The notes beneath the pieces are model-generated. The model searched no databases. It was not told the DNA's origin and saw only the letters and a list, made by a program, of their open reading frames with translations. Positions 35,459 to 51,496 of a DNA stretch of 64,000 bases are shown piece by piece (positions within the stretch are counted from its first letter, which is position 1; each line of letters starts with the position of its first letter). This DNA is from Candidatus Marinacidobacterales bacterium. Lineage in GTDB: Bacteria; Acidobacteriota; Vicinamibacteria; Marinacidobacterales; SMYC01. The stretch is from NCBI GenBank assembly GCA_965237955.1, contig OZ250169.1:1760001-1824000 (forward strand), in the 5' to 3' direction. The translations under genes were made by a program, and so were the position numbers.

Positions 35459-36742
35459 CTAATCGAATGCCGCTTTCAAACTCTGGCGGGCGCCGGCCAG
35501 AGTGCGGTCGAGATCATCGGGCTCGTGGGCGAGGGAGACGAAGAGGGCTTCGAACTGAGAGGGCGGCAAGTGGACGCCGCTTTCGAGCATCGAGCGAAAA
35601 AAGCGGGCGTGACGTTTCGTGTCCGAGCGGGTCGCGCTCTCGAAATCGGTGACCGGGCCTTCGGTGAAGAACAGCGTCAGCATCGAGCCCACCCGATTCA
35701 CCGTCAGCGGCAAGCTCAGCTCCGAGAGGATACCCTCGAGCCCGACCTCGAGATGATGGGAGCGTGTTTCGAGTCGATCCCACGCGTTGGCTTCTTCCAA
35801 TGCTTCGAGTTGGGCGAGCCCGGCGCTCATCGCTAACGGGTTTCCCGACAACGTGCCGGCCTGGTAAACAGGACCCGCCGGCGCGATCTGCTCCATGAGA
35901 TCACGTCGGCCTCCATAGGCGCCGACCGGGAGGCCGCCGCCAATCACTTTGCCGAGCGTGGTCAGGTCCGGGTTTACACCGTAGAGCTCTTGCGCGCCCC
36001 CACGGCTCACTCGAAACCCCGTCATGACTTCGTCGAAGATCAGGAGCGCGCCGTGCTGCTCGCTCACCTGCCGTAGACCTTCGAGGAATCCTTCGGCCGG
36101 CGGCACGACCCCCATGTTGCCTGCCACGGGCTCCACGATGACACAGGCGATGGTCTCGGGCGAGGCTTCGAACGCGCGGCGAACGGAGTCGAGATCGTTG
36201 AAGCGAGCGAGCGACGTCAACGCGGCGAGTGATGCCGGGACTCCGGGGCTGTCGGGAACGCCCATCGTCAACGCGCCCGATCCGGCCTGAATCAGGAAAG
36301 AATCGCCGTGTCCGTGATAACACCCTTTGAACTTGAGGATTCCATCCCGGCCGGTTGCGGCGCGTGCCAGGCGAATCGCAGAAAGCGTCGCCTCGGTTCC
36401 CGAGTTGACCATGCGCACCATGTCGACGGACGGCACGAGGGAGGTGAGCTTCTTGGCCATCTCCACCTCGAGCGCCGTGGGCGTACCGAAGGCCGTGCCC
36501 TTCTTGGCCGCGTCCTCGAGCGCGTCGACGACGCGTGGATGAGCGTGTCCAAGAATCAGCGGACCATAGGCGCCGATGTAGTCGATGTACTCACGACCGT
36601 CTTCGTCGGTGATGCGGCAACCACGCGCGCCCGTGATGAACCGCGGAGCCATGTCGATGCCGCGGAAGGCGCGGACGGGCGAGTTGACGCCGCCGGGCAA
36701 GTAGCGCTTCGCCTCTTCGTAGAGCTGTTCGCTTCGACTCAT
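35459..36742 (-). CDS. hemL: Glutamate-1-semialdehyde 2,1-aminomutase
   Basis: [36 protein letters not shown]. Confidence 0.97.
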
Positions 36743-36765
36743 TGTGCTTATCGGCCTTGGGGGGC

Positions 36766-37542
36766 TCAGGCGAGCTCCCGAGAAAAATGCTGCCGAATGG
36801 CTTCGACCAACCCTTCGGTGGTGTAGCGTTCGGCTTCGATGACGGGCTCGACGTTCTCCTCGCGGAGCGCGTCGCTGGTGATCGGACCAATGCTTGCGGG
36901 AGCGACGTGAGCGCGCAGGTTGTCGTCCGCCGAAGCAAAAAAACTGCGCACCGTGGAGCCCGACGTGAACGTGACCGCGTCCACCGAGCCGTCGCGGACC
37001 AAGGCGGTGGCGCGCTCGATGTCTTCGCTCGAGGCAACGGTCCGGTACGCGGCGACGTCGTCGACGTCACAACCGGCGTCGCGCAAGAGGTTCGGCAACG
37101 CCTCCCGGGCGATGTCGGCCCGAGGGAGGAGAATCTTCTTACCCGATAAGTCGGTGTGCCGCGACAGCGCTTCGAACACTTCTTCGGCCACGAAACGTTC
37201 CGGAACCACGGTAGCCTCGACGCCCCGCTCAGACAGCGCGTCCGCGGTCGCGGGGCCGATGGCGGCGAATGCGGAGCCCAACGTTGAGTGACGCGTAGAC
37301 GCGATGCGATCGAAAAAAGCTTCGACCCCGTTGACACTGGTGAAAACGATCCAATCGTAGTCATCCGCGTGCGCGAGGGCGGCATCGAGGGCTGCCCAGT
37401 CGGCCGGAGGCTCGATACGGATAGCGGGAGCGACGACGACGTCGGCACCGAGTGCGGCGAGAGCGTTCTTCAGAGATTCGGCCTGGTGGCGGGGACGGGT
37501 GACGACGATGCGGCGTCCGCTCAGAGGCCTTTGTTCCGTCAC
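36766..37542 (-). CDS. hemD: Uroporphyrinogen-III synthase
   Basis: [24 protein letters not shown]. Confidence 0.92.
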
Positions 37543-38456
37543 CGATCGTCACCCGGTCGCGCCACCTCGCGCATGATCTCGGCGGCTCCCATCTCTAGCA
37601 TCTCCTCGGCGAGCGCGAGCCCCAATGCTTCCGGCACGTCTCCCATCGCCTCACGCCTCAAGTGGCGCGCGCCGTCGACGGAGCCCACGTACCCGCGGAG
37701 CCGTAGCCGGTCGCCGTCCGTGTAGGCATAAGCCCCCATGGGAACTTGACACCCACCTTCGAGGCGTCCGAGAAAAGCACGCTCGCAAGCGACCGACCGC
37801 TGGCTGTCGACGTGATTCAACCGCGCGACAACCGCGAGAACATCTCGATCGTCGGTGCGGGTCTCGATGGCGAGAGCGCCCTGTCCTACCGCGGGGATCA
37901 TGTCTTCGATGGGGATCAGGGCGCCAATGCGCTCGACCAGGCCGAGTCGAACCAGCCCGGCTGCGGCGAGCACGATCGCGTCCCACGACGAGGCGTCGAA
38001 TTTGCCGAGGCGGGTCAAAACGTTACCGCGCAAATCCTCGACGTTCATGTCGGGGCGAGTGGCAAGAAGCTGCGAGCGCCGCCGCAAGCTCCCGGTGGCG
38101 AGCCGCGCCCCTCGGGGTAGCGAGGCGATGGAGTCGGCGCTCCGGCTGACGAGGGCGTCGCGCGCGTCCAAACGCTCGAGCGTTGCGGCGAGAGTCAGCC
38201 CGTCGGGCACGACCGAGGGAACGTCTTTCATGCTGTGGACGGCGATGTCGATACGCTCGTCGAGCAAAGCGGATTCGATCTCTTTGGTGAATAAACCTGA
38301 GGGTCCCACTTGGCTCAGAGGCCGGTCGGTGACCCGATCACCGTGGGTCTCGATGATCACGAGCTCGCTCTCGCCCTCGAGTGCTTGCATCGTCGAGCGC
38401 GCTTGGATGAGCGCCAGGTCGCTCCCGCGACTTCCGACGCGGATGGCGCGCGTCAT
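37539..38456 (-). CDS. hemC: Hydroxymethylbilane synthase
   Basis: GSRGSDLAL, FTKEIE, HSMKDVP, LEGGCQVP. Confidence 0.96.
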   Translation of the reverse strand: MTRAIRVGSRGSDLALIQARSTMQALEGESELVIIETHGDRVTDRPLSQVGPSGLFTKEIESALLDERIDIAVHSMKDVPSVVPDGLTLAATLERLDARDALVSRSADSIASLPRGARLATGSLRRRSQLLATRPDMNVEDLRGNVLTRLGKFDASSWDAIVLAAAGLVRLGLVERIGALIPIEDMIPAVGQGALAIETRTDDRDVLAVVARLNHVDSQRSVACERAFLGRLEGGCQVPMGAYAYTDGDRLRLRGYVGSVDGARHLRREAMGDVPEALGLALAEEMLEMGAAEIMREVARPGDDR

Positions 38457-38469
38457 TATGTTCTCAGTG

Positions 38470-39771
38470 TCATCGAGACTTCTTTTGGTTCGACGCGTCC
38501 GGTCGCTCGAGGTCGAACGCTTCGTAGAGCGTGTCGATGCGAAGAGCGTCGAATTCTCCCGCGTCACTCTCAGTCTCAGTCCAATCACGAACGTGGCCCA
38601 TGAGCGGATGGAGGATCTTGTTGACCAAACTTTCCGTCAACAGATCCAATTGCTCGCGATCTTCTCGGCAGAATCGTTTTCGATGGCGGGAGAGCTCTAG
38701 AGCCCGGATCTTCTCGACCCGCTCCCGAATCTTCTTGATGAGCGGGGTCGCCGCGAGTGAGTTGCGCCAGGTGACGAAGCTCTCGAGCTCGTGCTCGACG
38801 ATGGACTCGACCTTGGGAATCTCGGTACGTCGCTTTTCCAAACTGCGATCGACGAGCACGTTCATGTCGTCGATGTCGTGCAGGAACACGTCCTCCATCT
38901 CACCGATGCTGCCCTCGAAATCCCGGGGCACGGCGATGTCGATGACATAGATCGGTCGGCCGCCCCGCCGGCTCAAAATGGGCGCCATCATCTCGCGGCT
39001 GACGATAGGGGCGGTCGCGGCGGTGGAGCTGATTACGATATCGGCCGATGCGAGCGCCTCTTCGAGTCGATGGAGCGGCATGGCGCGACCACCGAGCTCT
39101 CGGGCCAACTCCTCGGCCTTTGCGAACGTGCGGTTCGCGATCACGAGCGACGTGACCCCTCGTTCGATCATGTGCCGCGCGGTGAGCGTACCCATCTCCC
39201 CGACCCCGATCAGAAGCACAGTGCGGGAAGAGAGGTCCTCGAAGATTTTGCCGGCGAGCTCGGACGCGGCACTGGCGATCGAGACCGCTCCCGCGCCGAT
39301 TTTGGTCTCGTTTCTGGCGCGCCGTCCCACTGCGACCGCCGATTGGAGGATGCGGTTCAAAACGATCCCACAGGCGCGGCTTTCGAGGGAAAGCTCATGG
39401 GCCCGCCGCACTTGACCCAAGATCTGAGCTTCTCCGAGAACGAGCGAGTCCAATCCCGCTGCGACGCGCAACAAGTGTCGTACGGATTCGTTCCGGGTAA
39501 GCGTGTACGCATAGCCGGGGTGAGCGTCGAAGTCGATGTTCTTCCGGTGCGCAATCAACTTGCGGATGTACATCTCCGCCGCGCCGTTATCCGTCGATAG
39601 TCCATAGAACTCGGTCCGGTTGCACGTGGACAACAGAATCGCTTCCGCGAGCGTGGGCTCTTCGCGCGCGCGTTTGAGCACATCGAGGATCTCGTCTTCC
39701 GAAAAAGCGACCTTCTCGCGCACCTCGACCGGTGCGGTGCGGTGGTTCATACCGACGACGATGAGATCCAT
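38470..39771 (-). CDS. hemA: Glutamyl-tRNA reductase
   Basis: HRTAPVEVRE, STCNRTE, GLDSLVLGEAQILGQV, DIAVPRD. Confidence 0.96.
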   Translation of the reverse strand: MDLIVVGMNHRTAPVEVREKVAFSEDEILDVLKRAREEPTLAEAILLSTCNRTEFYGLSTDNGAAEMYIRKLIAHRKNIDFDAHPGYAYTLTRNESVRHLLRVAAGLDSLVLGEAQILGQVRRAHELSLESRACGIVLNRILQSAVAVGRRARNETKIGAGAVSIASAASELAGKIFEDLSSRTVLLIGVGEMGTLTARHMIERGVTSLVIANRTFAKAEELARELGGRAMPLHRLEEALASADIVISSTAATAPIVSREMMAPILSRRGGRPIYVIDIAVPRDFEGSIGEMEDVFLHDIDDMNVLVDRSLEKRRTEIPKVESIVEHELESFVTWRNSLAATPLIKKIRERVEKIRALELSRHRKRFCREDREQLDLLTESLVNKILHPLMGHVRDWTETESDAGEFDALRIDTLYEAFDLERPDASNQKKSR

Positions 39772-39773
39772 AC

Positions 39774-40628
39774 TCACACGAACGCGTGAAAGCGCGTGAA
39801 CACCAGGTTCACGAACACCAGAGAAAAGAGGATGACGGCAAAGCCGGCGATCGACGTGAACGCGACGCGTTTCGCCGACCAACCCCAGAATCGAGTCGCG
39901 CCGACGCAAAGACCGTAGATCAACCACGCGATGAAGGTGATCATGAGCTTCGGATCCCAGCTCCAATAGGTTCCATAGACCTTCACCAGGAGTACCAACC
40001 CACCGACCATGGCGACGCTCAGGAAAACGAGGCCGAGGATTGCCGAGCGGTAGGTGAAGTTCGCCATCACTTCGAGAGACGGCAACTGTTTGTAAATGAG
40101 GCCGAAGCGGTGCTGCTTGATGTCGTAAAAGAGCATCAAGTAGAGAACGCCGTACATTGCCGAGATCGCCATTCCCGAGTATCCGAGAAGCGCCGTCGAC
40201 ACGTGTAGCATGAACGCCGGCTCCCACAGGAGCGCGCTGAAGCTCTCGGGTTCCTGCACGAAAGCCGACGAAATGATCTGGAAAAGGAACACGATGCCGA
40301 TGATGAAAAAGCCGGTCGTCGAGACGCCGATGCGGGACTCGATGAGCAGGTACAGGGCGATCACGGAAAAGGCGAGAACCGAGCACGCCTCGAATACGGT
40401 GGCGGCGGGGAAGTGATGGTACACAACCGTCCTGAGGACCAGGTAGAAGGCGTGTGTCAAGACCGCGAACCGGAGGAGGTGTTTTGCGGTCTTCTCCGCG
40501 AACGGGTCGTTTCGGAAGAACAGGAGCGCATAGTCAGCCCACAAAAGCGCATAGAGGGTCGGCAGAACGATATTGAGAGCTCGGATGGCGCTTTCCATGA
40601 CCTCGGGCCGCATCGCTTCAAGCGGCAC
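39774..40628 (-). CDS. CcsA/HemX-like cytochrome c assembly membrane protein
   Basis: About 8 TM helices, WSWDPK motif, directly upstream of hemA; start may be 40598. Confidence 0.8.
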   Translation of the reverse strand: MPLEAMRPEVMESAIRALNIVLPTLYALLWADYALLFFRNDPFAEKTAKHLLRFAVLTHAFYLVLRTVVYHHFPAATVFEACSVLAFSVIALYLLIESRIGVSTTGFFIIGIVFLFQIISSAFVQEPESFSALLWEPAFMLHVSTALLGYSGMAISAMYGVLYLMLFYDIKQHRFGLIYKQLPSLEVMANFTYRSAILGLVFLSVAMVGGLVLLVKVYGTYWSWDPKLMITFIAWLIYGLCVGATRFWGWSAKRVAFTSIAGFAVILFSLVFVNLVFTRFHAFV

Positions 40629-40725: not shown

Positions 40726-42435
40726 ATGCGACGTGGCCTTTTCTTCTGCGTTCTCGTCACCATCGGGGGATTGGTCGCGGGATGCGGGTCGCCTCCTGCG
40801 GCGGACGAGGGCGTTTTGCGCGTGGCCCTGTCACGCGAGCCGGCCACGTGGAACCGCTTGCTGGCCGCGGACTACCCCACTCATGTCGTCACCGATCAGC
40901 TCCACGCTCCGTTGATTCGTTTGAACCAGGAGACGCAGCTAATGGAGCCGGCGCTGGCGGAGTCGTGGGAGTTTTCGGAAGATGGCGGCGAGCTCGTGTT
41001 TTACTTGCGGGACGGCGTGCGGTTTTCGGATGGCGAGCCGTTCACCGCGGACGACGTGGCGTTCACGTTCCGGGTTCTCCATGACCCCGGGGTGGCGAGC
41101 CAACTGAAAGACTCGGCGGTGATCGACGGTGAGAACATCGTCGCCCACGTCATCGACGAGACGACTGTCGGCTTCCGGCTGCCGCGCCGCACGGCTACGG
41201 TGGAGAGGATCTTCGACAGTATTCGGATCCTCCCCGAGCATCGTCTGGCGGAGAGCCTCGCCGCCGGCACGCTCGCCGCCGATACCGGACTCGGTGCGCC
41301 CATCGAGAACATCGTCGGTCTCGGAGCGTTCCGTCTGCGCGAGCACGTTCCAGGCCAGCGTATCGTCCTCGAGAAAAACCCGCATTACTTTCGATCGGGC
41401 GACGACGTGTACCCGCGACTGTCGGGAATAGTTTTCGACGTCGTACCGGACACGAACGCCCAAGTTCTCAAGCTCCGCGCCGGCGAGTTCGACCTGCTCG
41501 AGCCCATCGCGCCGGAAGCGTTTCGCGAGCTTCGACGAGAGAGTCCCGCGTCGGTCACTTTGAATGACCTCGGTCCGAGCACGGTTTCCGAGCGCCTGTG
41601 GTTCAACTTGAACCCGGCGAGCCCTATCGATGCGTACAAGAAAAAGTGGTTCGAAGACGTTCGTTTCCGTCGCGCCGTCTCCCTCGCGATCGACCGCAAG
41701 AACATGGCGCGGGTCGTGTTCGGCGGCCTGGCTTCTGCGGCGTCCGGTCCGGTGTCACCCGCCAATCATTTCTGGAGAGACGAGAGCATCCAACCGATGA
41801 AGCGTGACGTCGACAGAGCCCGACGACTCCTCGTCGACGCGGGGTTCCGGTGGGAGGACGAAAACCTCTGCGATCGCGAAGGGAACCCGGTCCGGTTCAC
41901 GATCATCACCAACGCGGGGAGCGATCAGAGACGCCAGGAGGGCGCGTTCATCCAGGAAGATTTGAGGGAGCTCGGCATCGAGACCGTCCTGGCGCCGATC
42001 GAGGGAAGTGCTTTGCTTGCTCGGATCACCGGCACGTTCGACTACGACGCATGTCTACTCGGCTTGACGCAAACGGATCCGGATCCGTCTGCGGAGATGG
42101 CGCTGTGGCTGAGTCGCGCACCGCTTCATTTGTGGCATCCGGCGCAATCGCAGCCTGCGACCGAGTGGGAAGCCCGCATCGACCACCTCATGGAGTCCCA
42201 AATGACTTCGACCGACGACGAGCACCGCAAAGCGTGCTATCACGAAGTGCAACGGATCGTTTTGGAGAACCTGCCGCTGCTCGATCTCGTGGTGCCGCAT
42301 GCGCTCGTTGGTTACAGCTCCGGATTGATGGGCGTCCGGGCGACGCCGTTCTGGCACATTTTATGGAACAGTGACGAGCTTTTCCTCGAACGAGCGACAA
42401 TCCCACGAAATTCAAACCGTGACAGAAGTCACTGA
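40726..42435 (+). CDS. ABC transporter substrate-binding lipoprotein, family 5 (peptide/nickel)
   Basis: LVAGC lipobox, PALAESW, LRDGVRFSDGEPFTADDVAFT. Confidence 0.92.
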   Translation: MRRGLFFCVLVTIGGLVAGCGSPPAADEGVLRVALSREPATWNRLLAADYPTHVVTDQLHAPLIRLNQETQLMEPALAESWEFSEDGGELVFYLRDGVRFSDGEPFTADDVAFTFRVLHDPGVASQLKDSAVIDGENIVAHVIDETTVGFRLPRRTATVERIFDSIRILPEHRLAESLAAGTLAADTGLGAPIENIVGLGAFRLREHVPGQRIVLEKNPHYFRSGDDVYPRLSGIVFDVVPDTNAQVLKLRAGEFDLLEPIAPEAFRELRRESPASVTLNDLGPSTVSERLWFNLNPASPIDAYKKKWFEDVRFRRAVSLAIDRKNMARVVFGGLASAASGPVSPANHFWRDESIQPMKRDVDRARRLLVDAGFRWEDENLCDREGNPVRFTIITNAGSDQRRQEGAFIQEDLRELGIETVLAPIEGSALLARITGTFDYDACLLGLTQTDPDPSAEMALWLSRAPLHLWHPAQSQPATEWEARIDHLMESQMTSTDDEHRKACYHEVQRIVLENLPLLDLVVPHALVGYSSGLMGVRATPFWHILWNSDELFLERATIPRNSNRDRSH

Positions 42436-42728
42436 TCCCAGGGTCGGGCGGGAGTAGCTTGCACCCGTACAGTGAAGTTAGAATCTTGATTCGCGGGGGC
42501 GAGGAGGTGAGCCCGGGATAACGGTTGACGTAGGGGTGGCCCCACAGCAAAGCGGCGCAAGGAAACGCGATCCTAAATCTTCTTATTCTCGTTTTTCCCG
42601 CTCTTGCTCCGGAGTCATCGAACTCTCCGTGAGCTGAACGTCCCGCCCGTTAGTTACATCATCTTGAGCCCCGGCGCTCGGCGTCGTTCGGCCGATCTGC
42701 CGTCTATCGCGACAAAAGGAGGTTCCCC

Positions 42729-42806
42729 ATGCAGGGTATTCTTTGGGTTTATAATTTCAGATTGACGAATAATTATTCTTCATGTGTTTTATTCCGTTAC
42801 ATTTAA
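42729..42806 (+). CDS. Possible 25-aa small ORF (MQGILWVYNFRLTNNYSSCVLFRYI)
   Basis: AAGGAGG just upstream of the ATG; its TAA overlaps the next RBS; the region is AT-rich, so it may be spurious. Confidence 0.3.
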   Translation: MQGILWVYNFRLTNNYSSCVLFRYI

Positions 42807-42816
42807 GGAGAACATC

Positions 42817-42921
42817 TTGGATAACATACAAGAAGTTCAGGAAATCTTAGAACTTACCGTCGAAGAGCTCGAAGAGCGCACGGCGCCCGGCTTGGTTGTT
42901 GTTTGGATTCCATATCCATAG
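42817..42921 (+). CDS. 34-aa peptide MDNIQEVQEILELTVEELEERTAPGLVVVWIPYP (precursor-like)
   Basis: TAAGGAG RBS 6 nt before TTG; acidic leader-like half ending ELEERTAP; followed by a GC hairpin. Confidence 0.7.
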   Translation: MDNIQEVQEILELTVEELEERTAPGLVVVWIPYP

Positions 42922-42957
42922 GGACATAACAAGATTCCCCGCCTAGATGTTGATTCG

Positions 42958-42981
42958 GGAGGCCGCTCGGGGGCGGTCTCC
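42958..42981 (+). terminator. Hairpin downstream of the peptide gene
   Basis: GGAGGCCGC / GCGGTCTCC stem; U-tract weak. Confidence 0.5.
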
Positions 42982-43180
42982 TAAACTTCCTCCCTCGGTT
43001 TTGCTTTCCGTTTGACCCGATCCCAATACCTGTGGTAGTTTGCTTGACCTTGGGTTTTTAGATTTTCAATTGCATGGCTCCGAATAAGGGTTGGGCGCTT
43101 TTTCTACCGGCACTTTTTTCGGTTATTAATAATTTCGCTAACCCGCAGGTGCCGCCTGCAAACGTGATCCGGAGTCGCAC

Positions 43181-45681
43181 TTGGCTTGGCGTAAAGGGCC
43201 CATCGGTGTCCGCTTCTTCTCCTACACGATAGCCGGTCTGGGAGCTCTGACTCTCGGATGGGCGGCCCTGTCCGTCGGCGATTTCGTGGAAAGCCTCCCG
43301 CTCTCCGAAGGGGTCGCGTTTCTGAGCGTCGTCGCCGTCGCGTGCGTGAGCGCGCGCTGGGTCGTGCGGGTGCCACGCACGGACAACTACATGGCGGTGG
43401 CGGATTCCCTGATGCTTGCCGTGACGATGATCTACGGCGTGGTGGCGGGGGTCCTCGCGAACGGTCTCTTCTATCTCGTCAGCTATTGGTGCGTCACTCG
43501 GTCGTCGCCGCTTAGCCCCCGCCGCGACTACGCGTAGAACAATCTACAGGCGGCGTTCAACATCGGGGCGGGGGCGCTCTACGCGCTCGCGTTCGGAGTG
43601 GTCTTCTTCGCTGCGCTCCCGGAGGGTCCCATAGGCGCTCGGCAGCTGGTTATCCCCGTTGTGTTGATGGCGGGGACGTACTTCCTCGTGAACTCCGTGC
43701 TCACGGACGCCGTCCAGGCGTTAGCCGGCCGCGACGCCTTCCGGCAGCTGTGGCTCCAGAACCTCCCGCTGGTGCCGCTCTACTTTCTCGCGTCTGCCGG
43801 CGGCGCCGCCATCGTTCACCTCTTTCATGCCTTCGCAGGCCCGTGGTCATTCGTCCTGGCGTTGCCCATCCTCGTCGTCGCGTACTACGCGCATCTCTTC
43901 TACAACGAGAAGTACGAAGAGCTGTCGCGGCTCCACAAGCAAACGCTCGAAGCGTTCGCGTTTTGTATCGACGCGATGGAGCTGCACACGGACTTCAAGC
44001 ACCACACCCACACGCACATCCAACGCACCCAAGTGCTGGCGCTCTCTCTCGCGCGAGCAGTCAACGTGGACGAGACCACGTACGAGGGGCTGAGCTACGC
44101 GTCGGTCTTGCACGACGTCGGGAAGATCTCCATCCCCTCGTACATTCTTCACAAACCGACGCGGTTGACCGAGAGAGAGTTTCAGAAGATGAGCACCCAC
44201 CCTGCGGTGGGCGCACAGATAATTTCTTCGATCGATTTTCCGTTTCCCGTCGTGGAGATCGTCAGACACCACCACGAGAACTGGGACGGCTCGGGTTATC
44301 CAGATGGGCTCAAGGGAAACTCGATCCCGTTGGGCTCGCGGGTTCTCGCGCTGGCGGATTGCTACGAAGCATTGACCGCACGGCGCGTCTACCGCCGCTC
44401 GTTGTCGCGCGATGCCGCGCTCACGATCATGAAGCGCGAGAAGAACAAGTTCGATCCGGAAATCTTCAAAAAGTTTCTCGAGGTGATCCCCCAGCTTGAG
44501 CAAGAGCTGAAATCCATCGAAGTGCGCTCGCTCGAGGACCCGAGAGAGCATCGCGACCAAAAGAGAGCGCCCGACATCGTAGGAACACCGAAGGCGATGA
44601 CGTTGAGAAGCTCGATCTCGGAACCACAACAAGAGATCTTCACGCTGTTCGAGATTCTGCAGAACATCGGCAACTCGCTCTCGAGCACCGATACCCTCAC
44701 GATTCTCGCGTCCAAGCTCGAGAAGATCGTTCCGTTCACGACGCTCGTCATCTACCTTGCCGAGGAGGGGACCGAAGAGCTCAAGCCCGCCCACATTGCC
44801 GGTGAGCACAAGGAGGCGTTCGCCGAGCTTTCGATCGAGATTGGTACCCGCCTCGCCGGCTGGGTGGCGGCGAACAACCGCTTCCTCTACAACGTGCATC
44901 CGGGGCCCGACACCATGGCGCTGCCGGAGGAGATCAAGAGCCTTTATGGCAACTCGCTCCTGGCGCCGCTTGTGCACGAAGACCGACCGCTCGGCACCAT
45001 CGCGCTCTACGTGACCGGGGACGAACGCTATTCCGACGACCACATTCGCTTGATGGAGATCGTTTCTAACCGCGCGTCGATCGCGCTCTTCAACGCGACC
45101 CGATTCGAGGAGACCCAAGAAGACGCTTTTACCGATCGATTGACCGGGCTTCCGAACTCGAGGTTCCTTTACATTTTCTTCGAGCAGACGCTATCCGAGG
45201 CCAAGCGCTACGGCGAGCCGCTCACCGTGATCGAGCTCGATCTCGACGACTTCAAAGCGGTCAACGATCGGCACGGGCATCACACTGGCGATCGATTCCT
45301 CAAGGAAGTCGGCCGCATCCTCAAAGGTCACATGCGCGACGCCGACGTGCTGGTACGCTACGCTGGCGACGAGTTCATCGCGATCTTGCCGAAGACGACC
45401 TACGAGCAGGCGCGCAATTCTCCTACCGGCTTCAGGAAGCGGTCGAAGAGACCGAGCTCGATGTCGGTATCGGTTCGATGCTCAAAGTCGGCATCTCGCT
45501 CGGGCTCGCTTCTTACCCTGCCGCCGGACAGGACTTGGAATCGCTTCTCATGGCCGCGGACAAGGCCATGTACGAGGACAAAGCTCGTCGGAAGGGCCGA
45601 AAGCGCGGCAGCTCCAAATCGGACAGCTACCAGCCAAGCCTATTCGAATCGGAAGAGCTACATAGTCAGCGTCCGAATTAG
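43181..45681 (+). pseudogene. Membrane-sensor HD-GYP + GAF + GGDEF protein with an in-frame TAG (43535) and a frameshift (~45417)
   Basis: Multi-TM N-terminus; LHDVGK, HHENWDGSGYP; DRLTGLPN, RYAGDEF; AADKAMY lies in the shifted frame ending 45681. Confidence 0.85.
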
Positions 45682-46500: not shown

Positions 46501-47094
46501 CTATATTAGCGAATACGCACCTGCATTATAGAACGGCGCGAGCGCGTGCAACATGGAGCGCGCAAATGCTTCCTCGCGCGTGACAACACCGCCCGTGAGA
46601 ACGCCGAACGTGCCCTCGTGACCGGCGACGTCGCGCCGCTCGAAGTAGTGGTCGGCGGCAGGACCTAGATCTTCCCCTCGTTCGAGCACGGCGGCGGCGA
46701 GCTCGTCGGGGAGCGGGATCCGACCGCTGCCCCCGAAAAAGCCGTGCTCGCCGTCCGTCGCGAATGCCCAGGATTCCAGGAACACGGTGCGGCCTTCGGT
46801 GGCAACACCACCTTCGAGACCGATGCTCAGCGAGGGCGTGAGCCCGTCGTCTCGTACCGCGACGAGCGCGGCGTGCGCGCGATTTTTCGCGCCGAGCATC
46901 GTCGCTTCCGTCGCCGTCGGGGTGGACGGCGCTCCCGAAGGCACTTGCCGCGGCTCGACTCTGAGCTCACCCGGTAGAAAATCGGGAAAGCGCGCACGCA
47001 ACTCCGCCAGAACGCGCTCGACGGCCTGAACCTTGGGACGCCTGGTCGTCCCGACAGAGACGATTGAGGCCGGCGCAGGGTCAAGTCTCTTCAA
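46501..47094 (-). CDS. Non-canonical purine NTP phosphatase (YjjX/DUF84 family)
   Basis: GTTRRPK, GAKNRA, IGLEGG, GVLTGG. Confidence 0.82.
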
Positions 47095-48085
47095 TTACGA
47101 GCTCCAATCCTCGGGGCGCCAGGTGGTACTCCAACACCGAGCCGCCTGCCTCGACGACGGCATCCGCGACCTTTTTCCGCTTGCCCCCCGGGACCGCGAG
47201 GATCATGCACCCACCACCACCGGCACCGCACACTTTCGCTGCGGTGGCCCCGCCTTCGTGAGCTGCGGCAATGAGCTCTTCCAGCTCCGGGCTCGAGACC
47301 GCGGGTGCCATCTCGCGCCGCGCCTGCCAGTCCTCGCCGATGAGCTTCGCGACGCGATTCAAATCGGAGGCGACGAGGGCGTCGCGCACCGCGACTGCAG
47401 TACGACCACTGCGCTCGACCGCTGCGACCGTCTTTGCGTCGTCCTCGATGAAGCGTTTGACCACTTCCCAGTTCGTGGCGCCCGAGCGATGCGGTTGATG
47501 GGAATACGCCAGGAGGAAACGTTCACGAAAGGCTTCCGCGTCGACGGGCAGAGCTTCGCGACGATGGCCGAGCTTCTGCTACCACAGGCATGCCGCTCCG
47601 CCGAATACCGGAGGGTAATGATCCTGGGCGCCGGTCATGGTGCGAAGGAGCTCGACTTCGACGTCCTTGACGATGTCGATCAGCTCGTGCGATCGGTAAC
47701 GAAATCCAGTCAGCCCGTTCAACGCCCCGGCAATCGAGATCCCGAGTGACGACGATGCGCCGAGGCCGGCCTGGGGCGGCGCTTCCGAATGGATCGTAAG
47801 CGTGAGCGGGCGCTCGGGTGCGAAAAACGCGAGGAGCCGTCCCGCGATTTCTGAGCCCTCCATGTGGGCGAGCTCGTCGGGCGAGGCCGCCGAGACGCTA
47901 CGGCCCGACCGACGCTCACGAACGTGCCAGGCATCGTCGGGAGAGAGGTCGATGGCCGCTTCCGTGTAGAGATCGATCGCGATATTGACCGTCGCCGCCT
48001 CGTCGATGAGGAGGTACAGCGGCCACAGATCGACGGTGCCTCCCGCGAGATCGATCCGCGTCGGGGCGTGGGCCCGAAGGGTCAT
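47081..48085 (-). pseudogene. GHMP sugar kinase (HddA-like) with an in-frame TAG at 47579-47581
   Basis: APTRIDLAGG, GLGASS, GAQD, KVCGAGGGG; both halves are in the same frame. Confidence 0.85.
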
Positions 48086-49417: not shown

Positions 49418-50377
49418 TCATCGACGAGGAAACCTGCATTCCTGCGGATCCTTCTGTACGAAGCCAATGAACACCGGGTGGCGTAATCGGTGGTCCATGG
49501 TCAGCTCCGCGTACTCCACTCTCACGACGAGGGCTGGTTTCAGCCAGTCGATCTCGCCCGGGGCGTCCGCTGCGAAATTCGAAGGCCGCTCGGCTTTCAA
49601 CGGTCCCAGCTCCGTGCCGAGCTCGGCGACGGTCTTCTGATCGAGCCCGCTACCGACGTTTCCGAGCCACACGAGCGCGTCGTTCTCGTACACGCCCAAC
49701 ACCAACGATTTTACGCGACGGGTGCGGTGCTCGCGCACGATCCCGACTAGGACCCCGTCGGTGCGCCGCCTTACCTTGAGCTTCAACCAATCGTTCGAGC
49801 GCTCGCCGCACAGGTAGCGGCTTTCTAAAACCTTCGCCACCACACCCTCGAGCCCGCGCTCGTCGGCTTCCTTGAATAGCGCCTTGCCTTGGCTCAACAC
49901 GTAGGTGCTCTCGACGATCGGAGAGGGTGGTTCTTTCAAGAGATCGGACAAGAGCCGCTTGCGCTCTTCGAGCGGGCGATCGAACAACGGCTCACCGTCG
50001 CGAAACAGAAGATCGAAAGCAACATAAATGACCGGGTGTTGCCGCGCTTTGAGAAGAGCCGCATCTCGTGAAGCCGTCTGCTCACGGGTCAAGACCCGTT
50101 GGAAGTTGGGTCGACCATCGTCGTCGAGGACGATGACTTCACCGTCGAGGATGCCCTCTCCGGGCAGTTTCTCCAGCGTCGCCACGACCTCGGGATAGCG
50201 CGCGGTCGCATCCGTGAGCTTTCGCCCCTGAAGTCGAGCGACGCCGTTGCCGAAAAAAGCGAGGACGCGAATGCCGTCCCACTTGATCTCGAAGAGGTGC
50301 TTGTCGGAATCGAAAGGAGACCCCGTCCTCGCCAGCATGGGCGCAATTTTTTTGTTCAACCAGTGGTTGTGTTGCAT
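49418..50377 (-). CDS. ligD: ATP-dependent DNA ligase (LigD ligase domain only)
   Basis: EIKWDGIR, LDGEV, AFDLL, EGVVAK, WLKLK, LRHPVF. Confidence 0.88.
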   Translation of the reverse strand: MQHNHWLNKKIAPMLARTGSPFDSDKHLFEIKWDGIRVLAFFGNGVARLQGRKLTDATARYPEVVATLEKLPGEGILDGEVIVLDDDGRPNFQRVLTREQTASRDAALLKARQHPVIYVAFDLLFRDGEPLFDRPLEERKRLLSDLLKEPPSPIVESTYVLSQGKALFKEADERGLEGVVAKVLESRYLCGERSNDWLKLKVRRRTDGVLVGIVREHRTRRVKSLVLGVYENDALVWLGNVGSGLDQKTVAELGTELGPLKAERPSNFAADAPGEIDWLKPALVVRVEYAELTMDHRLRHPVFIGFVQKDPQECRFPRR

Positions 50378-50382
50378 GGTGC

Positions 50383-50499
50383 GCCATCGGCCATCAGCCG
50401 TCAGCCATCGGCCCGACCACGGTGAGTCGCGCGTGCCGGCATGGGGCGATTGAAAGGACCAAGGAAACAGCTGACGGCTGATGGCCGATGGCTGAAGGC
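50383..50499. repeat. Element with inverted (GCCRTCR)n heptamer arms between ku and ligD
   Basis: gccatcggccatcagccgtcagccatcggc ... gctgacggctgatggccgatggctgaaggc. Confidence 0.8.
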
Positions 50500-50516
50500 G
50501 GATCCGTGCGCACGAT

Positions 50517-51335
50517 CTACTCGTTCGCAGCTTTCGCGCGCTCTTCGCCCGCTTCCCTTGGAGCCAGCTCACTCTTTTCCAGACTCGACTTGAGGGCATC
50601 CATCAGATTAATGACTTTGCCCGTTTCCACTTCCGGCGGCTCCACGATCTCTTTGCCCTCGGCCTTGGCTTTGACGATGTCGAGGAGAGCTTTTTTGTAG
50701 TTGTCCGCGAATTCCTCGGGATGGAAAGGCTTGGTGATCGACTCGATGAGCTCGCTCGCGAGCTTCAGCTCGTCGGGATTGACCTCGGGATTGGCGTCGA
50801 GCTCTTCGATTCCCGAAAGCGCGCGGACCTCATCCGCGAAGTAGAGAGCCGACATCACGAACACCTTCTCGCGTGGCCGGATGGCGACGACTTGCTCTTT
50901 ACCGTTCATGACGACGCGCGCGAGCCCGATGCGCTCTTTTTCCTCCGTCGCGTGCAGGATCGTCGCGAAGCTTTCGATCGCGACGGGTCCATCCGGGACC
51001 ACGTAGTGCGAGCCGTGGTAGTAGAGTGGATCGATCTCGCCCCGGTTGACGAACTGGACGATATTGATGGACTTCGTGCTTTCGAGGCGCACTTTGGTGA
51101 AGTCTTCCTCGTCCATGATGACGTACTGTTCTTTGGCGTATTCGTAGCCTTTGACGATCTCATCGCTCGAAACGCTGCGCTCGCACGTGGGGCAACGCTT
51201 GTCGTACTTGACGCGAGAGTTGCACTCTTTGTGAATCTGATTGAAGGATAGTGATTGGGATCGCGCTGCGGGGTACAGGCGAACGGGGATGTTCACGAGC
51301 GAAAGCTTGAGGAAACCCTTCCATGTCGGTCTCAT
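50517..51335 (-). CDS. ku: Ku protein (NHEJ)
   Basis: WKGFLKLSLVNIPV, IVKGYE, VINLMDALKSSL. Confidence 0.95.
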   Translation of the reverse strand: MRPTWKGFLKLSLVNIPVRLYPAARSQSLSFNQIHKECNSRVKYDKRCPTCERSVSSDEIVKGYEYAKEQYVIMDEEDFTKVRLESTKSINIVQFVNRGEIDPLYYHGSHYVVPDGPVAIESFATILHATEEKERIGLARVVMNGKEQVVAIRPREKVFVMSALYFADEVRALSGIEELDANPEVNPDELKLASELIESITKPFHPEEFADNYKKALLDIVKAKAEGKEIVEPPEVETGKVINLMDALKSSLEKSELAPREAGEERAKAANE

Positions 51336-51496
51336 CGTGCGTCCCTCCGATCCGAAGTGTAGAAGGGCAGTCGACTGCGTGTCAACGCTTTGGTCAGGAG
51401 ATCCGATGCAAGACACGCTATGTCAATTTGGAGATAAGAAAATGCAATAATTGCAGAATTCGGGTACCGTGCGTGGAAAAACCTGCGCGATCATTG

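What the first reader, a model, noticed from the sequence alone, without database searches (positions are those of the whole stretch)
42801..45681. Candidate peptide-signal to c-di-GMP module: precursor-like peptide upstream of a membrane HD-GYP-GAF-GGDEF protein
Seen: a 34-aa ORF below the ORF-track cutoff, in an AT-rich ~750-bp gap, with a good RBS and a downstream hairpin. It has an acidic leader-like half ending LTVEELEERTAP and a short hydrophobic core GLVVVWIPYP. The next gene has a multi-TM sensor fused to HD-GYP, GAF and AGDEF-type GGDEF domains; the previous gene is an orphan family-5 peptide-binding lipoprotein. Known: an acidic leader ending in AP followed by a short core is a common RiPP-precursor layout. 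No modifying enzyme, protease or exporter is adjacent. Inference: a processed signalling peptide sensed by the TM domain to tune c-di-GMP, or an orphan precursor matured in trans.
Basis: partly seen in the sequence, partly recalled or inferred. Interest (0 to 1): 0.78.

Follow-up and report, generated by a model that had tools for sequence, protein, structure and literature searches.

The report
Twin micro-peptides feeding a c-di-GMP sensor
Two tiny unannotated peptide genes, conserved across a group of marine Acidobacteria, sit in front of a membrane enzyme predicted to make and break the messenger c-di-GMP, and they likely supply the still-unknown signal for its sensor domain, although in this strain the sensor gene is broken.

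Summary
The 34-codon ORF is real. A homologue lies before the orthologous sensor gene in 17 of 20 relatives' loci, with a constant leader and a variable core. The sensor is MASE9-like–HD-GYP–GAF–GGDEF. Its membrane domain models as an ECF S-component fold whose pocket probably faces the cytoplasm. The leader resembles the daptide leader and lies beside an RRE–M50 protease–HlyD gene in 35 of 68 loci elsewhere; two Acidobacteriota carry that protease in cis with precursor and sensor. Distant HD-GYP sensors of this type carry a ΦΦW source upstream in 11 of 19 cases (control 6 of 600). The binding protein is no orphan in 14 of 20 relatives, where dppBC follow. Best reading: export, re-import and cytoplasmic sensing of a short hydrophobic peptide. 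This strain's copy is decayed (nonsense codon, frameshift, protease and dppBC not found), while other populations are intact. The scan earlier noted MASE9 micropeptides and this export leader separately, on other DNA.

The parts
40726..42435 (+). Family-5 (peptide-type) solute-binding lipoprotein; partnered by dppB/dppC permease genes after the sensor in relatives, which were not found in this genome
   Evidence: PF00496 E 1e-75. dppB/dppC in 14 of 20 relatives' loci; the best match in this genome is a 34-37% paralogue elsewhere
42717..42806 (+). Leaderless micro-ORF M-x-G-Φ-Φ-W-Φ (codons 42729-42749, AGGAGG at 42717-42722). Its stop codon is lost here, so it reads on to 25 aa
   Evidence: 24 copies in 20 sensor loci, window included. 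All four Gly codons, six Leu codons and all three stop codons are used while the residues stay. The stop is present in runs X5 and X7
42805..42921 (+). 34-aa precursor: RBS 42805-42810, acidic leader 42817-42888 ending in the EELEER.AP motif, hydrophobic core 42889-42918
   Evidence: ATG start in nearly all relatives (one GTG) and in runs X2, X5, X7
42957..42982 (+). Conserved stem-loop after the peptide genes, followed by a pyrimidine tract; role unclear (terminator-like or processing site)
   Evidence: Pattern in 12 of 21 intergenic regions and only 2 matches genome-wide; no Rfam hit; z -0.98
43181..43930 (+). MASE9-like membrane sensor domain (8 predicted TM helices, ECF S-component fold), interrupted by TAG at 43535-43537
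   Evidence: MASE9 in 10 of 12 orthologues, below cut-off (best E 8e-4); a distant homologue passes the cut-off. Model pLDDT 76; fold Z 13.4 to 4m5c. TGG at this codon in runs X2, X3, X5, X7
44003..44464 (+). HD-GYP phosphodiesterase domain with intact HD and HHExxDGxGYP motifs
   Evidence: PF13487 E 3e-41; motifs in 12 of 12 orthologues
44678..45088 (+). GAF domain
   Evidence: PF13492 / PF13185
45125..45681 (+). GGDEF domain (AGDEF variant with RxxD I-site), split by a frameshift near 45413
   Evidence: PF00990 on both pieces. One extra base at this site in runs X3, X5, X7; none in X1 or X2

Best explanation
The locus is likely a peptide-signalling cassette in which short hydrophobic peptides control c-di-GMP turnover by binding the predicted cytoplasm-facing pocket of a MASE9-like membrane domain. 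Shown: two conserved small coding genes precede the sensor, a peptide-binding protein precedes them, and in most relatives two permease genes follow. Inferred step 1: the leader of the ~30-aa precursor is read by the RRE of an RRE-M50-HlyD protein encoded elsewhere, cut after the AP, and the 5-10-residue core is sent out of the cell. Inferred step 2: the binding protein and DppBC, with an ATPase from another locus, bring the core back in. Predicted step 3: the core docks in the S-component-like pocket and shifts the balance between HD-GYP and GGDEF activity. Inferred step 4: the leaderless 7-mer, made in the cytoplasm, binds the same pocket as a cell-autonomous set-point or competitor. In the window's strain the cassette has decayed and probably does not work.
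For: Precursor, micro-ORF and membrane domain occur together in the same 17 of 20 loci. Both ORFs show synonymous variation with residue conservation. The leader lies on the same strand as an RRE-M50 gene in 35 of 68 small-ORF loci from other phyla (two are duplicate loci). RRE-M50-HlyD occurs in 23 of 26 genomes of the two families that have the cassette (one only a remnant) and in 0 of 14 of the sister family that lacks it. G502 and G556 carry RRE-M50-HlyD, then precursor(s) with a ΦΦW core, then the sensor, in cis. The fusion is a homologue of the daptide leader peptidase (NF041824 E 6e-62, below cut-off), whose precursors carry ELExMEAP (10.1101/2023.03.08.531785, passages). ΦΦW sources (micro-ORFs, precursors, or repeat tails of S8 proteases) precede 11 of 19 distant HD-GYP sensors, 0 of 10 non-HD-GYP ones and 6 of 600 control ORFs. 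Binding protein plus dppBC also flank 6 of 20 distant loci. The top 15 fold matches are all ECF S-components or their kin, and the pocket-side loops are K/R-rich like the cytoplasmic termini. RNA-library contigs of close relatives cover 42451-42940 in two runs of one study (weak).
Against: No binding, cleavage or translation data exist. Only 6 of 22 precursor cores carry a Trp in their first six residues, so the cores do not all match the ΦΦW pattern. G018 keeps intact peptides and sensor, but no RRE-M50-HlyD was found in it. G006, G017 and G018 lack dppBC at the locus and show only 29-40% paralogues. RRE-M50-HlyD is retained, as split genes, in G005, G013 and G015, which lack the peptides. 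No ABC ATPase lies in 26 of 26 loci checked. The ΦΦW pattern was written, so the 11 of 19 is post hoc, and kin genomes are not independent. 8 of 19 distant HD-GYP sensors show no such source within 1.1 kb.
Confidence: 0.5

Rival explanations
1. The peptides regulate the sensor directly inside the producing cell, like small-protein regulators, with no cell-to-cell step. The M50 protease merely releases the core at the membrane, and the binding protein and permeases serve something else.
For: The leaderless 7-mer cannot plausibly be exported and is better conserved than the cores. The pocket is predicted to face inward. One clade lacks dppBC but keeps peptides and sensor.
Against: The protease is fused to a periplasmic HlyD adaptor. 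In other Acidobacteriota the same motif is carried on S8 proteases, most with signal-peptide-like N-termini, next to binding protein and dppBC.
Confidence: 0.2
2. The precursor is an exported RiPP or surface peptide with its own target. The c-di-GMP enzyme is only co-regulated or co-located and senses something else, such as a small molecule in its S-component pocket.
For: The same leader is used by many unrelated cargoes, including long G/N/P-rich cores and proteins over 1000 aa. In G014 a YcaO-TfuA pair is inserted right after the precursor. Known S-components bind vitamins and metals (entry titles).
Against: YcaO-TfuA was seen in 1 of 20 loci. This reading does not explain the leaderless 7-mer, or why three different gene types with the same ΦΦW motif recur before this sensor family.
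Confidence: 0.15
3. The 7-codon ORF is a cis-acting leader peptide (Trp-sensing attenuator) that, with the hairpin, sets transcription of the sensor gene; the peptides are not ligands.
For: An invariant Trp codon, a strong RBS and a conserved hairpin before the sensor gene.
Against: About 200 nt and a second ORF separate it from the hairpin. Five loci carry two copies. Non-Trp residues are conserved at protein level. The same motif occurs as 8-20-fold repeats in protease tails. No Rfam match.
Confidence: 0.08
4. Binding protein and the ATPase-less DppBC form a co-sensor that binds the peptide outside and signals to the MASE9-like domain by contact in the membrane, without transport.
For: No ATPase in 26 of 26 loci; conserved adjacency of the binding protein to the sensor, even where dppBC are lost.
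Against: Oligopeptide-type ATPases exist elsewhere in 5 of 5 genomes tested; the inward-facing pocket and the cytoplasmic 7-mer would be unexplained.
Confidence: 0.07

Closest known systems
MASE9-HD-GYP-GAF-GGDEF proteins (10.1101/2021.11.05.467447; passages read)
   Same: The same domain order is described there; 8 TM segments; the ligand is unknown and proposed to bind within the membrane.
   Different: The passages seen mention no peptide genes ('peptide' has 0 occurrences in the main text). Our domain scores below the Pfam cut-off.
Daptide precursor and RRE-fused site-2 peptidase MpaP (10.1101/2023.03.08.531785; passages read)
   Same: Acidic leader ending in AP (ELExMEAP against EELEER.AP), aliphatic core, homologous RRE-M50 peptidase.
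   Different: No invariant C-terminal Thr and no modifying enzymes at the locus. The peptidase here is fused to HlyD and is mostly encoded in trans. The neighbour is a c-di-GMP enzyme.
Enterococcal pheromone/inhibitor pairs cCF10/iCF10 (PMC7117660; passages read)
   Same: Two competing 7-8-residue hydrophobic peptides, release by a membrane metalloprotease, capture by an oligopeptide-type binding protein and Opp import: the logic proposed here.
   Different: Their receptor is the cytoplasmic regulator PrgX acting on DNA. Here it would be a membrane S-component-like domain acting on c-di-GMP, in a diderm bacterium, and one peptide has no leader at all.
Type-I-secretion-related M50/HlyD module (PMC4452313; passages read)
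   Same: M50-HlyD fusion with no ABC transporter, proposed to act in secretion.
   Different: The passages seen name no substrate or leader. GAF-HlyD and SecA_DEAD partners were not noticed beside the copies inspected.
ECF S-components (4m5c, RibU 5kbw, FolT 5d0y)
   Same: Fold: Z 12-13, rmsd about 3 A over 150-190 residues.
   Different: Predicted inverted orientation, one extra C-terminal helix, and fusion to a signalling enzyme. That S-component pockets open outward is recalled textbook knowledge.

Membership tests
MASE9 (PF20972) | Pfam score at or above the gathering cut-off (24.3 bits) | tested here: inconclusive
   10 of 12 orthologues match below cut-off (best E 8e-4); the homologue in L267 passes at 28.8 bits
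MASE9 (PF20972) | About 8 TM segments, N-terminal to HD-GYP(-GAF-GGDEF) | tested here: met
HD-GYP c-di-GMP phosphodiesterase | HD and HHExxDGxGYP motifs | tested here: met
   12 of 12 orthologues and the window
HD-GYP c-di-GMP phosphodiesterase | Measured c-di-GMP hydrolysis | not testable with these tools
   Needs an enzyme assay
Diguanylate cyclase (GGDEF) | Canonical GG(D/E)EF active site | tested here: inconclusive
   AGDEF with an RxxD I-site in 12 of 12 orthologues; may be active or a c-di-GMP-binding module; split by a frameshift in the window
Daptide RiPP | Acidic leader ending in AP, with an RRE-fused site-2 peptidase | tested here: inconclusive
   Similar motif; homologous peptidase at 210 of 300 bits, in trans in relatives and not found in G000
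Daptide RiPP | Invariant C-terminal Thr and Dmp-forming enzymes | tested here: not met
   1 of 17 aligned precursors ends in Thr; no such enzymes were seen at the locus
RiPP precursor in general | Dedicated modifying enzyme | tested here: not met
   None at the window; YcaO-TfuA seen only in G014, 1 of 20 loci. Enzymes in trans were not searched
RiPP precursor in general | Match to a curated precursor model | tested here: not met
   0 of 17 match NCBIfam at E <= 1; Pfam gives only a chance hit
RRNPP / pheromone-type peptide signalling | Cytoplasmic TPR receptor of the RRNPP family | tested here: not met
   No such gene at the locus in the window; the conserved gene order in relatives leaves room only for dppBC. 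The rest of the genome was not searched
RRNPP / pheromone-type peptide signalling | Export, processing and Opp re-import of a short peptide | tested here: inconclusive
   Genes for each step are associated; function untested
ECF S-component fold | Structural match over the whole domain | tested here: met
   Z 13.4, rmsd 3.3, 191 aligned; ranks 1-15 are all of this fold, the next unrelated match is Z 7.1. Foldseek agrees only weakly, E 0.04

The most novel reading that the evidence does not exclude
MASE9-type domains are inverted ECF S-components that act as cytoplasm-facing peptide receptors. Acidobacteriota run a peptide quorum or kin-sensing circuit with c-di-GMP output. The same ΦΦW signal is produced by three interchangeable routes: an RRE-M50-HlyD-exported precursor, the repeat tail of a secreted S8 protease, and a leaderless 7-9-codon gene. 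It is re-imported by a dedicated binding protein and DppBC, and the variable cores define pherotypes.
Probability: 0.35. Interest if true: 0.9.

Novelty: new variant of a known kind. Interest (0 to 1): 0.74.

Why it matters
It offers a cheap, direct test (synthetic or co-expressed 6-9-mers) for the ligand of MASE9, a widespread orphan sensor domain. It also offers a short natural substrate for the uncharacterised RRE-M50-HlyD export module, and it links the two. Peptide pheromone logic with export and re-import is textbook for Gram-positive bacteria (recalled). A version in diderm Acidobacteriota that ends in c-di-GMP, through a repurposed vitamin-transporter fold, was not found in the searches run (open-access library only). 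A 7-codon gene under clear protein-level selection is among the smallest one can show this way.

Tried and rejected
A word-index homologue search was not possible for 34 aa. The HMMER library search gave 6 hits, all close relatives. Assembly error as the cause of the breaks: run X1, possibly the source and so not independent, matches the window with no differences over the break sites, so the breaks are in that population; other runs are intact. REP-type repeat for the hairpin: rejected, 2 matches genome-wide. Riboswitch or known RNA: no Rfam hit in the window. Sigma-70 promoter or standard terminator in the gap: none on the + strand. A second precursor copy or an RRE-M50 gene elsewhere in G000: not found (genome 98% complete); the syntenic site after C1:7634539 holds a kinase-like fragment and a transposase instead. 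RRE-M50 tree: only the quick tree finished. The 13 relatives' copies form one group (SH 100) next to the cis copy L264 (SH 92, long branch); L265 was missed by the row filter; no weight is put on it. Lack of RNA contig cover over most of the sensor gene in X18/X19 is not used as evidence. A planned variability statistic for cores against micro-ORFs was not computed; the contrast is read. Kinship of the leader to planctomycete N-terminal export motifs is recalled and was not tested, apart from seeing the motif at the start of proteins over 1000 aa. Crocagin papers were listed only. PMC10885120, PMC12710340 and PMC8939145 (passages) did not describe this module; supplements were not read for any paper, and bioRxiv supplements were closed.

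Full report
Observation. The ORF at 42817-42921 exists as described: 34 aa, TTG start, AAGGAG 6 nt upstream, in a 745-bp gap of lowered GC. It matches no NCBIfam family and only a chance Pfam family. The downstream gene has HD-GYP, GAF and GGDEF domains but is broken in this genome by a TAG at 43535-43537 and a frameshift near 45413. The upstream gene is a family-5 binding lipoprotein.

Conservation. A search of 40 relatives found orthologues of the sensor at 59-92% identity in families f1 and f2, and no match at all in the 14 genomes of f3. One titled locus with the same cassette is labelled Ca. Marinacidobacterales (L151). I fetched 20 of the 26 f1/f2 loci. A precursor homologue lies upstream of the sensor in 17 of 20, one of them frameshifted. 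The three without it (G015, G012, G005; the last at a contig end) also lack the membrane domain. Leaders are nearly constant, while cores vary by genus, and tandem copies occur. Across 300 genomes of the class, strong matches were confined to f1/f2, apart from one other genome and a few weak ones.

A second, smaller gene. About 90 nt upstream of the precursor lies a 7-8-codon ORF, M-x-G-Φ-Φ-W-Φ-stop, with a strong RBS. It was found in 20 of 21 regions examined; the exception is a stray precursor copy with no sensor. Among 24 copies, Gly uses all four codons, Leu six, and the stop all three, while the residues hold. This is selection on a peptide, not on DNA. Five loci carry two copies. In the window it starts at 42729 and has lost its stop.

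This strain is a decayed copy. Run X1, possibly the source, agrees with the window at all break sites. Four other runs read TGG at the nonsense codon, three read ATG at the precursor start, three carry the base missing at the frameshift, and two keep the micro-ORF stop. dppB/dppC follow the sensor in 14 of 20 relatives' loci but were not found here. Contigs from two RNA-library runs of one study cover 42451-42940 in close relatives. That is a weak hint of transcription, since contigs show neither strand nor level.

What reads the leader. Distant leader homologues in G127, G286 and G257 flank an RRE(PqqD-like)-M50-HlyD fusion gene. In 68 of these 80 the motif lay in a small ORF, and 35 of the 68 (two duplicates) had an RRE-M50 gene on the same strand. 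The cargoes vary widely and include proteins over 1000 aa. The fusion is found at another locus in 23 of 26 f1/f2 genomes, in 0 of 14 f3 genomes, and not in G000, G003, G012 or G018. In G000 the syntenic site holds a transposase and a kinase-like fragment. The fusion is a homologue of the daptide leader peptidase, whose precursors carry ELExMEAP with Pro at -1 (passages). In two other Acidobacteriota, G502 and G556, the fusion, precursor(s) with a related leader and a ΦΦW core, and the sensor stand in one row.

What the sensor is. Ten of 12 orthologous membrane domains match MASE9 below the cut-off. MASE9-HD-GYP-GAF-GGDEF is a described architecture with unknown ligand (passages). The model (pLDDT 76) matches ECF S-components in ranks 1-15, best Z 13.4, with the next unrelated fold at 7.1; Foldseek points the same way, weakly. 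K+R counts are high at both termini and in L1, L3 and L5 (1.9-4.2), and low in the alternating loops (0-1.1). Since the C-terminus carries the cytoplasmic enzyme, the loops that cap the S-component pocket (recalled) are predicted to face the cytoplasm. That would let a leaderless cytoplasmic peptide bind directly and would make an importer necessary for an exported one.

The motif is general. The membrane-domain profile hit 51 of 400 phylum genomes. Of the 29 best loci returned, 11 of 19 HD-GYP sensors and 0 of 10 others had a ΦΦW source within 1.1 kb; 6 of 600 control ORFs had one within 1.5 kb. The pattern was written, so this is post hoc. The sources are 7-10-codon ORFs, leader-core precursors, poly-core peptides, and repeat tails on S8 proteases, often with a micro-ORF echoing the tail in the same locus. 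Binding protein and dppBC flank 6 of the 20 hand-picked loci. No ABC ATPase lay in 26 loci, but such ATPases occur elsewhere in 5 of 5 genomes.

Against the reading. Binding could not be modelled. Only 6 of 22 precursor cores have an early Trp. G018 has the cassette without a detectable protease. G006, G017 and G018 lack local dppBC. Split protease genes persist in three genomes without peptides. One relative has YcaO-TfuA inserted after the precursor, which fits a RiPP reading.

Comparison and verdict. It works like the enterococcal two-peptide export and re-import logic (passages), but it is not an RRNPP system and not a daptide. Ten literature searches found the parts described separately and no peptide input to MASE9; the library lacks most subscription papers. 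Earlier notes of this scan, unchecked, reported MASE9 micropeptides, Trp-tailed proteases, a similar Acidobacteria locus and the export leader on other DNA. What this locus adds is the junction of the export leader with the MASE9 cassette. Verdict: a real, conserved, unannotated two-peptide cassette; peptide control of c-di-GMP is about even odds; this particular copy is probably dead.

Noticed in passing
L037:6642-9646 (G014): A YcaO gene and a TfuA-domain gene are inserted directly after the precursor, between it and the sensor; possibly thioamidation recruited to this peptide in one genome.
   Followed up: partly
window 42729-42921; protein P0002; run X2: In a near-identical population, the read-through micro-ORF is in frame with the precursor, giving a 63-aa fusion that is on record in the protein library.
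   Followed up: partly
L104:9870-10013 (G031:C7): A stray precursor copy with RBS, and no sensor or micro-ORF nearby.
   Followed up: no
L125, L153, L184: The same leader motif begins proteins of 1000-2000 aa, suggesting one export tag for both giant proteins and tiny peptides.
   Followed up: no
L228: A precursor with this leader ends in an aromatic tripeptide that recalls the crocagin core (recalled, not checked).
   Followed up: no
L120, L147, L163, L171, L175, L182: A family of short precursors with this leader and Gly-rich 8-residue cores in Ignavibacteria and Zixibacteria, with no RRE-M50 gene in the locus.
   Followed up: no
L266-L270, L275: A ~930-aa gene follows the MASE9-like HD-GYP gene in these loci; earlier scan notes call it a TPR/sigma-54 activator. 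Not annotated here.
   Followed up: no
window 47081-48085 (-): A GHMP-kinase-like gene appears as two ORFs, and at the same spacing in most relatives' loci; the gap may be only an effect of start choice or of my query split.
   Followed up: no
window 35459-40628 (-) and 49418-51416 (-): Ordinary conserved neighbours, named from the translations without a family scan: ccsA-hemA-hemC-hemD-hemL, and Ku with an ATP-dependent ligase.
   Followed up: no
G000:C1:7634568-7637650: A broken kinase/TolB-like gene and a transposase occupy the site where relatives have the RRE-M50-HlyD gene.
   Followed up: partly
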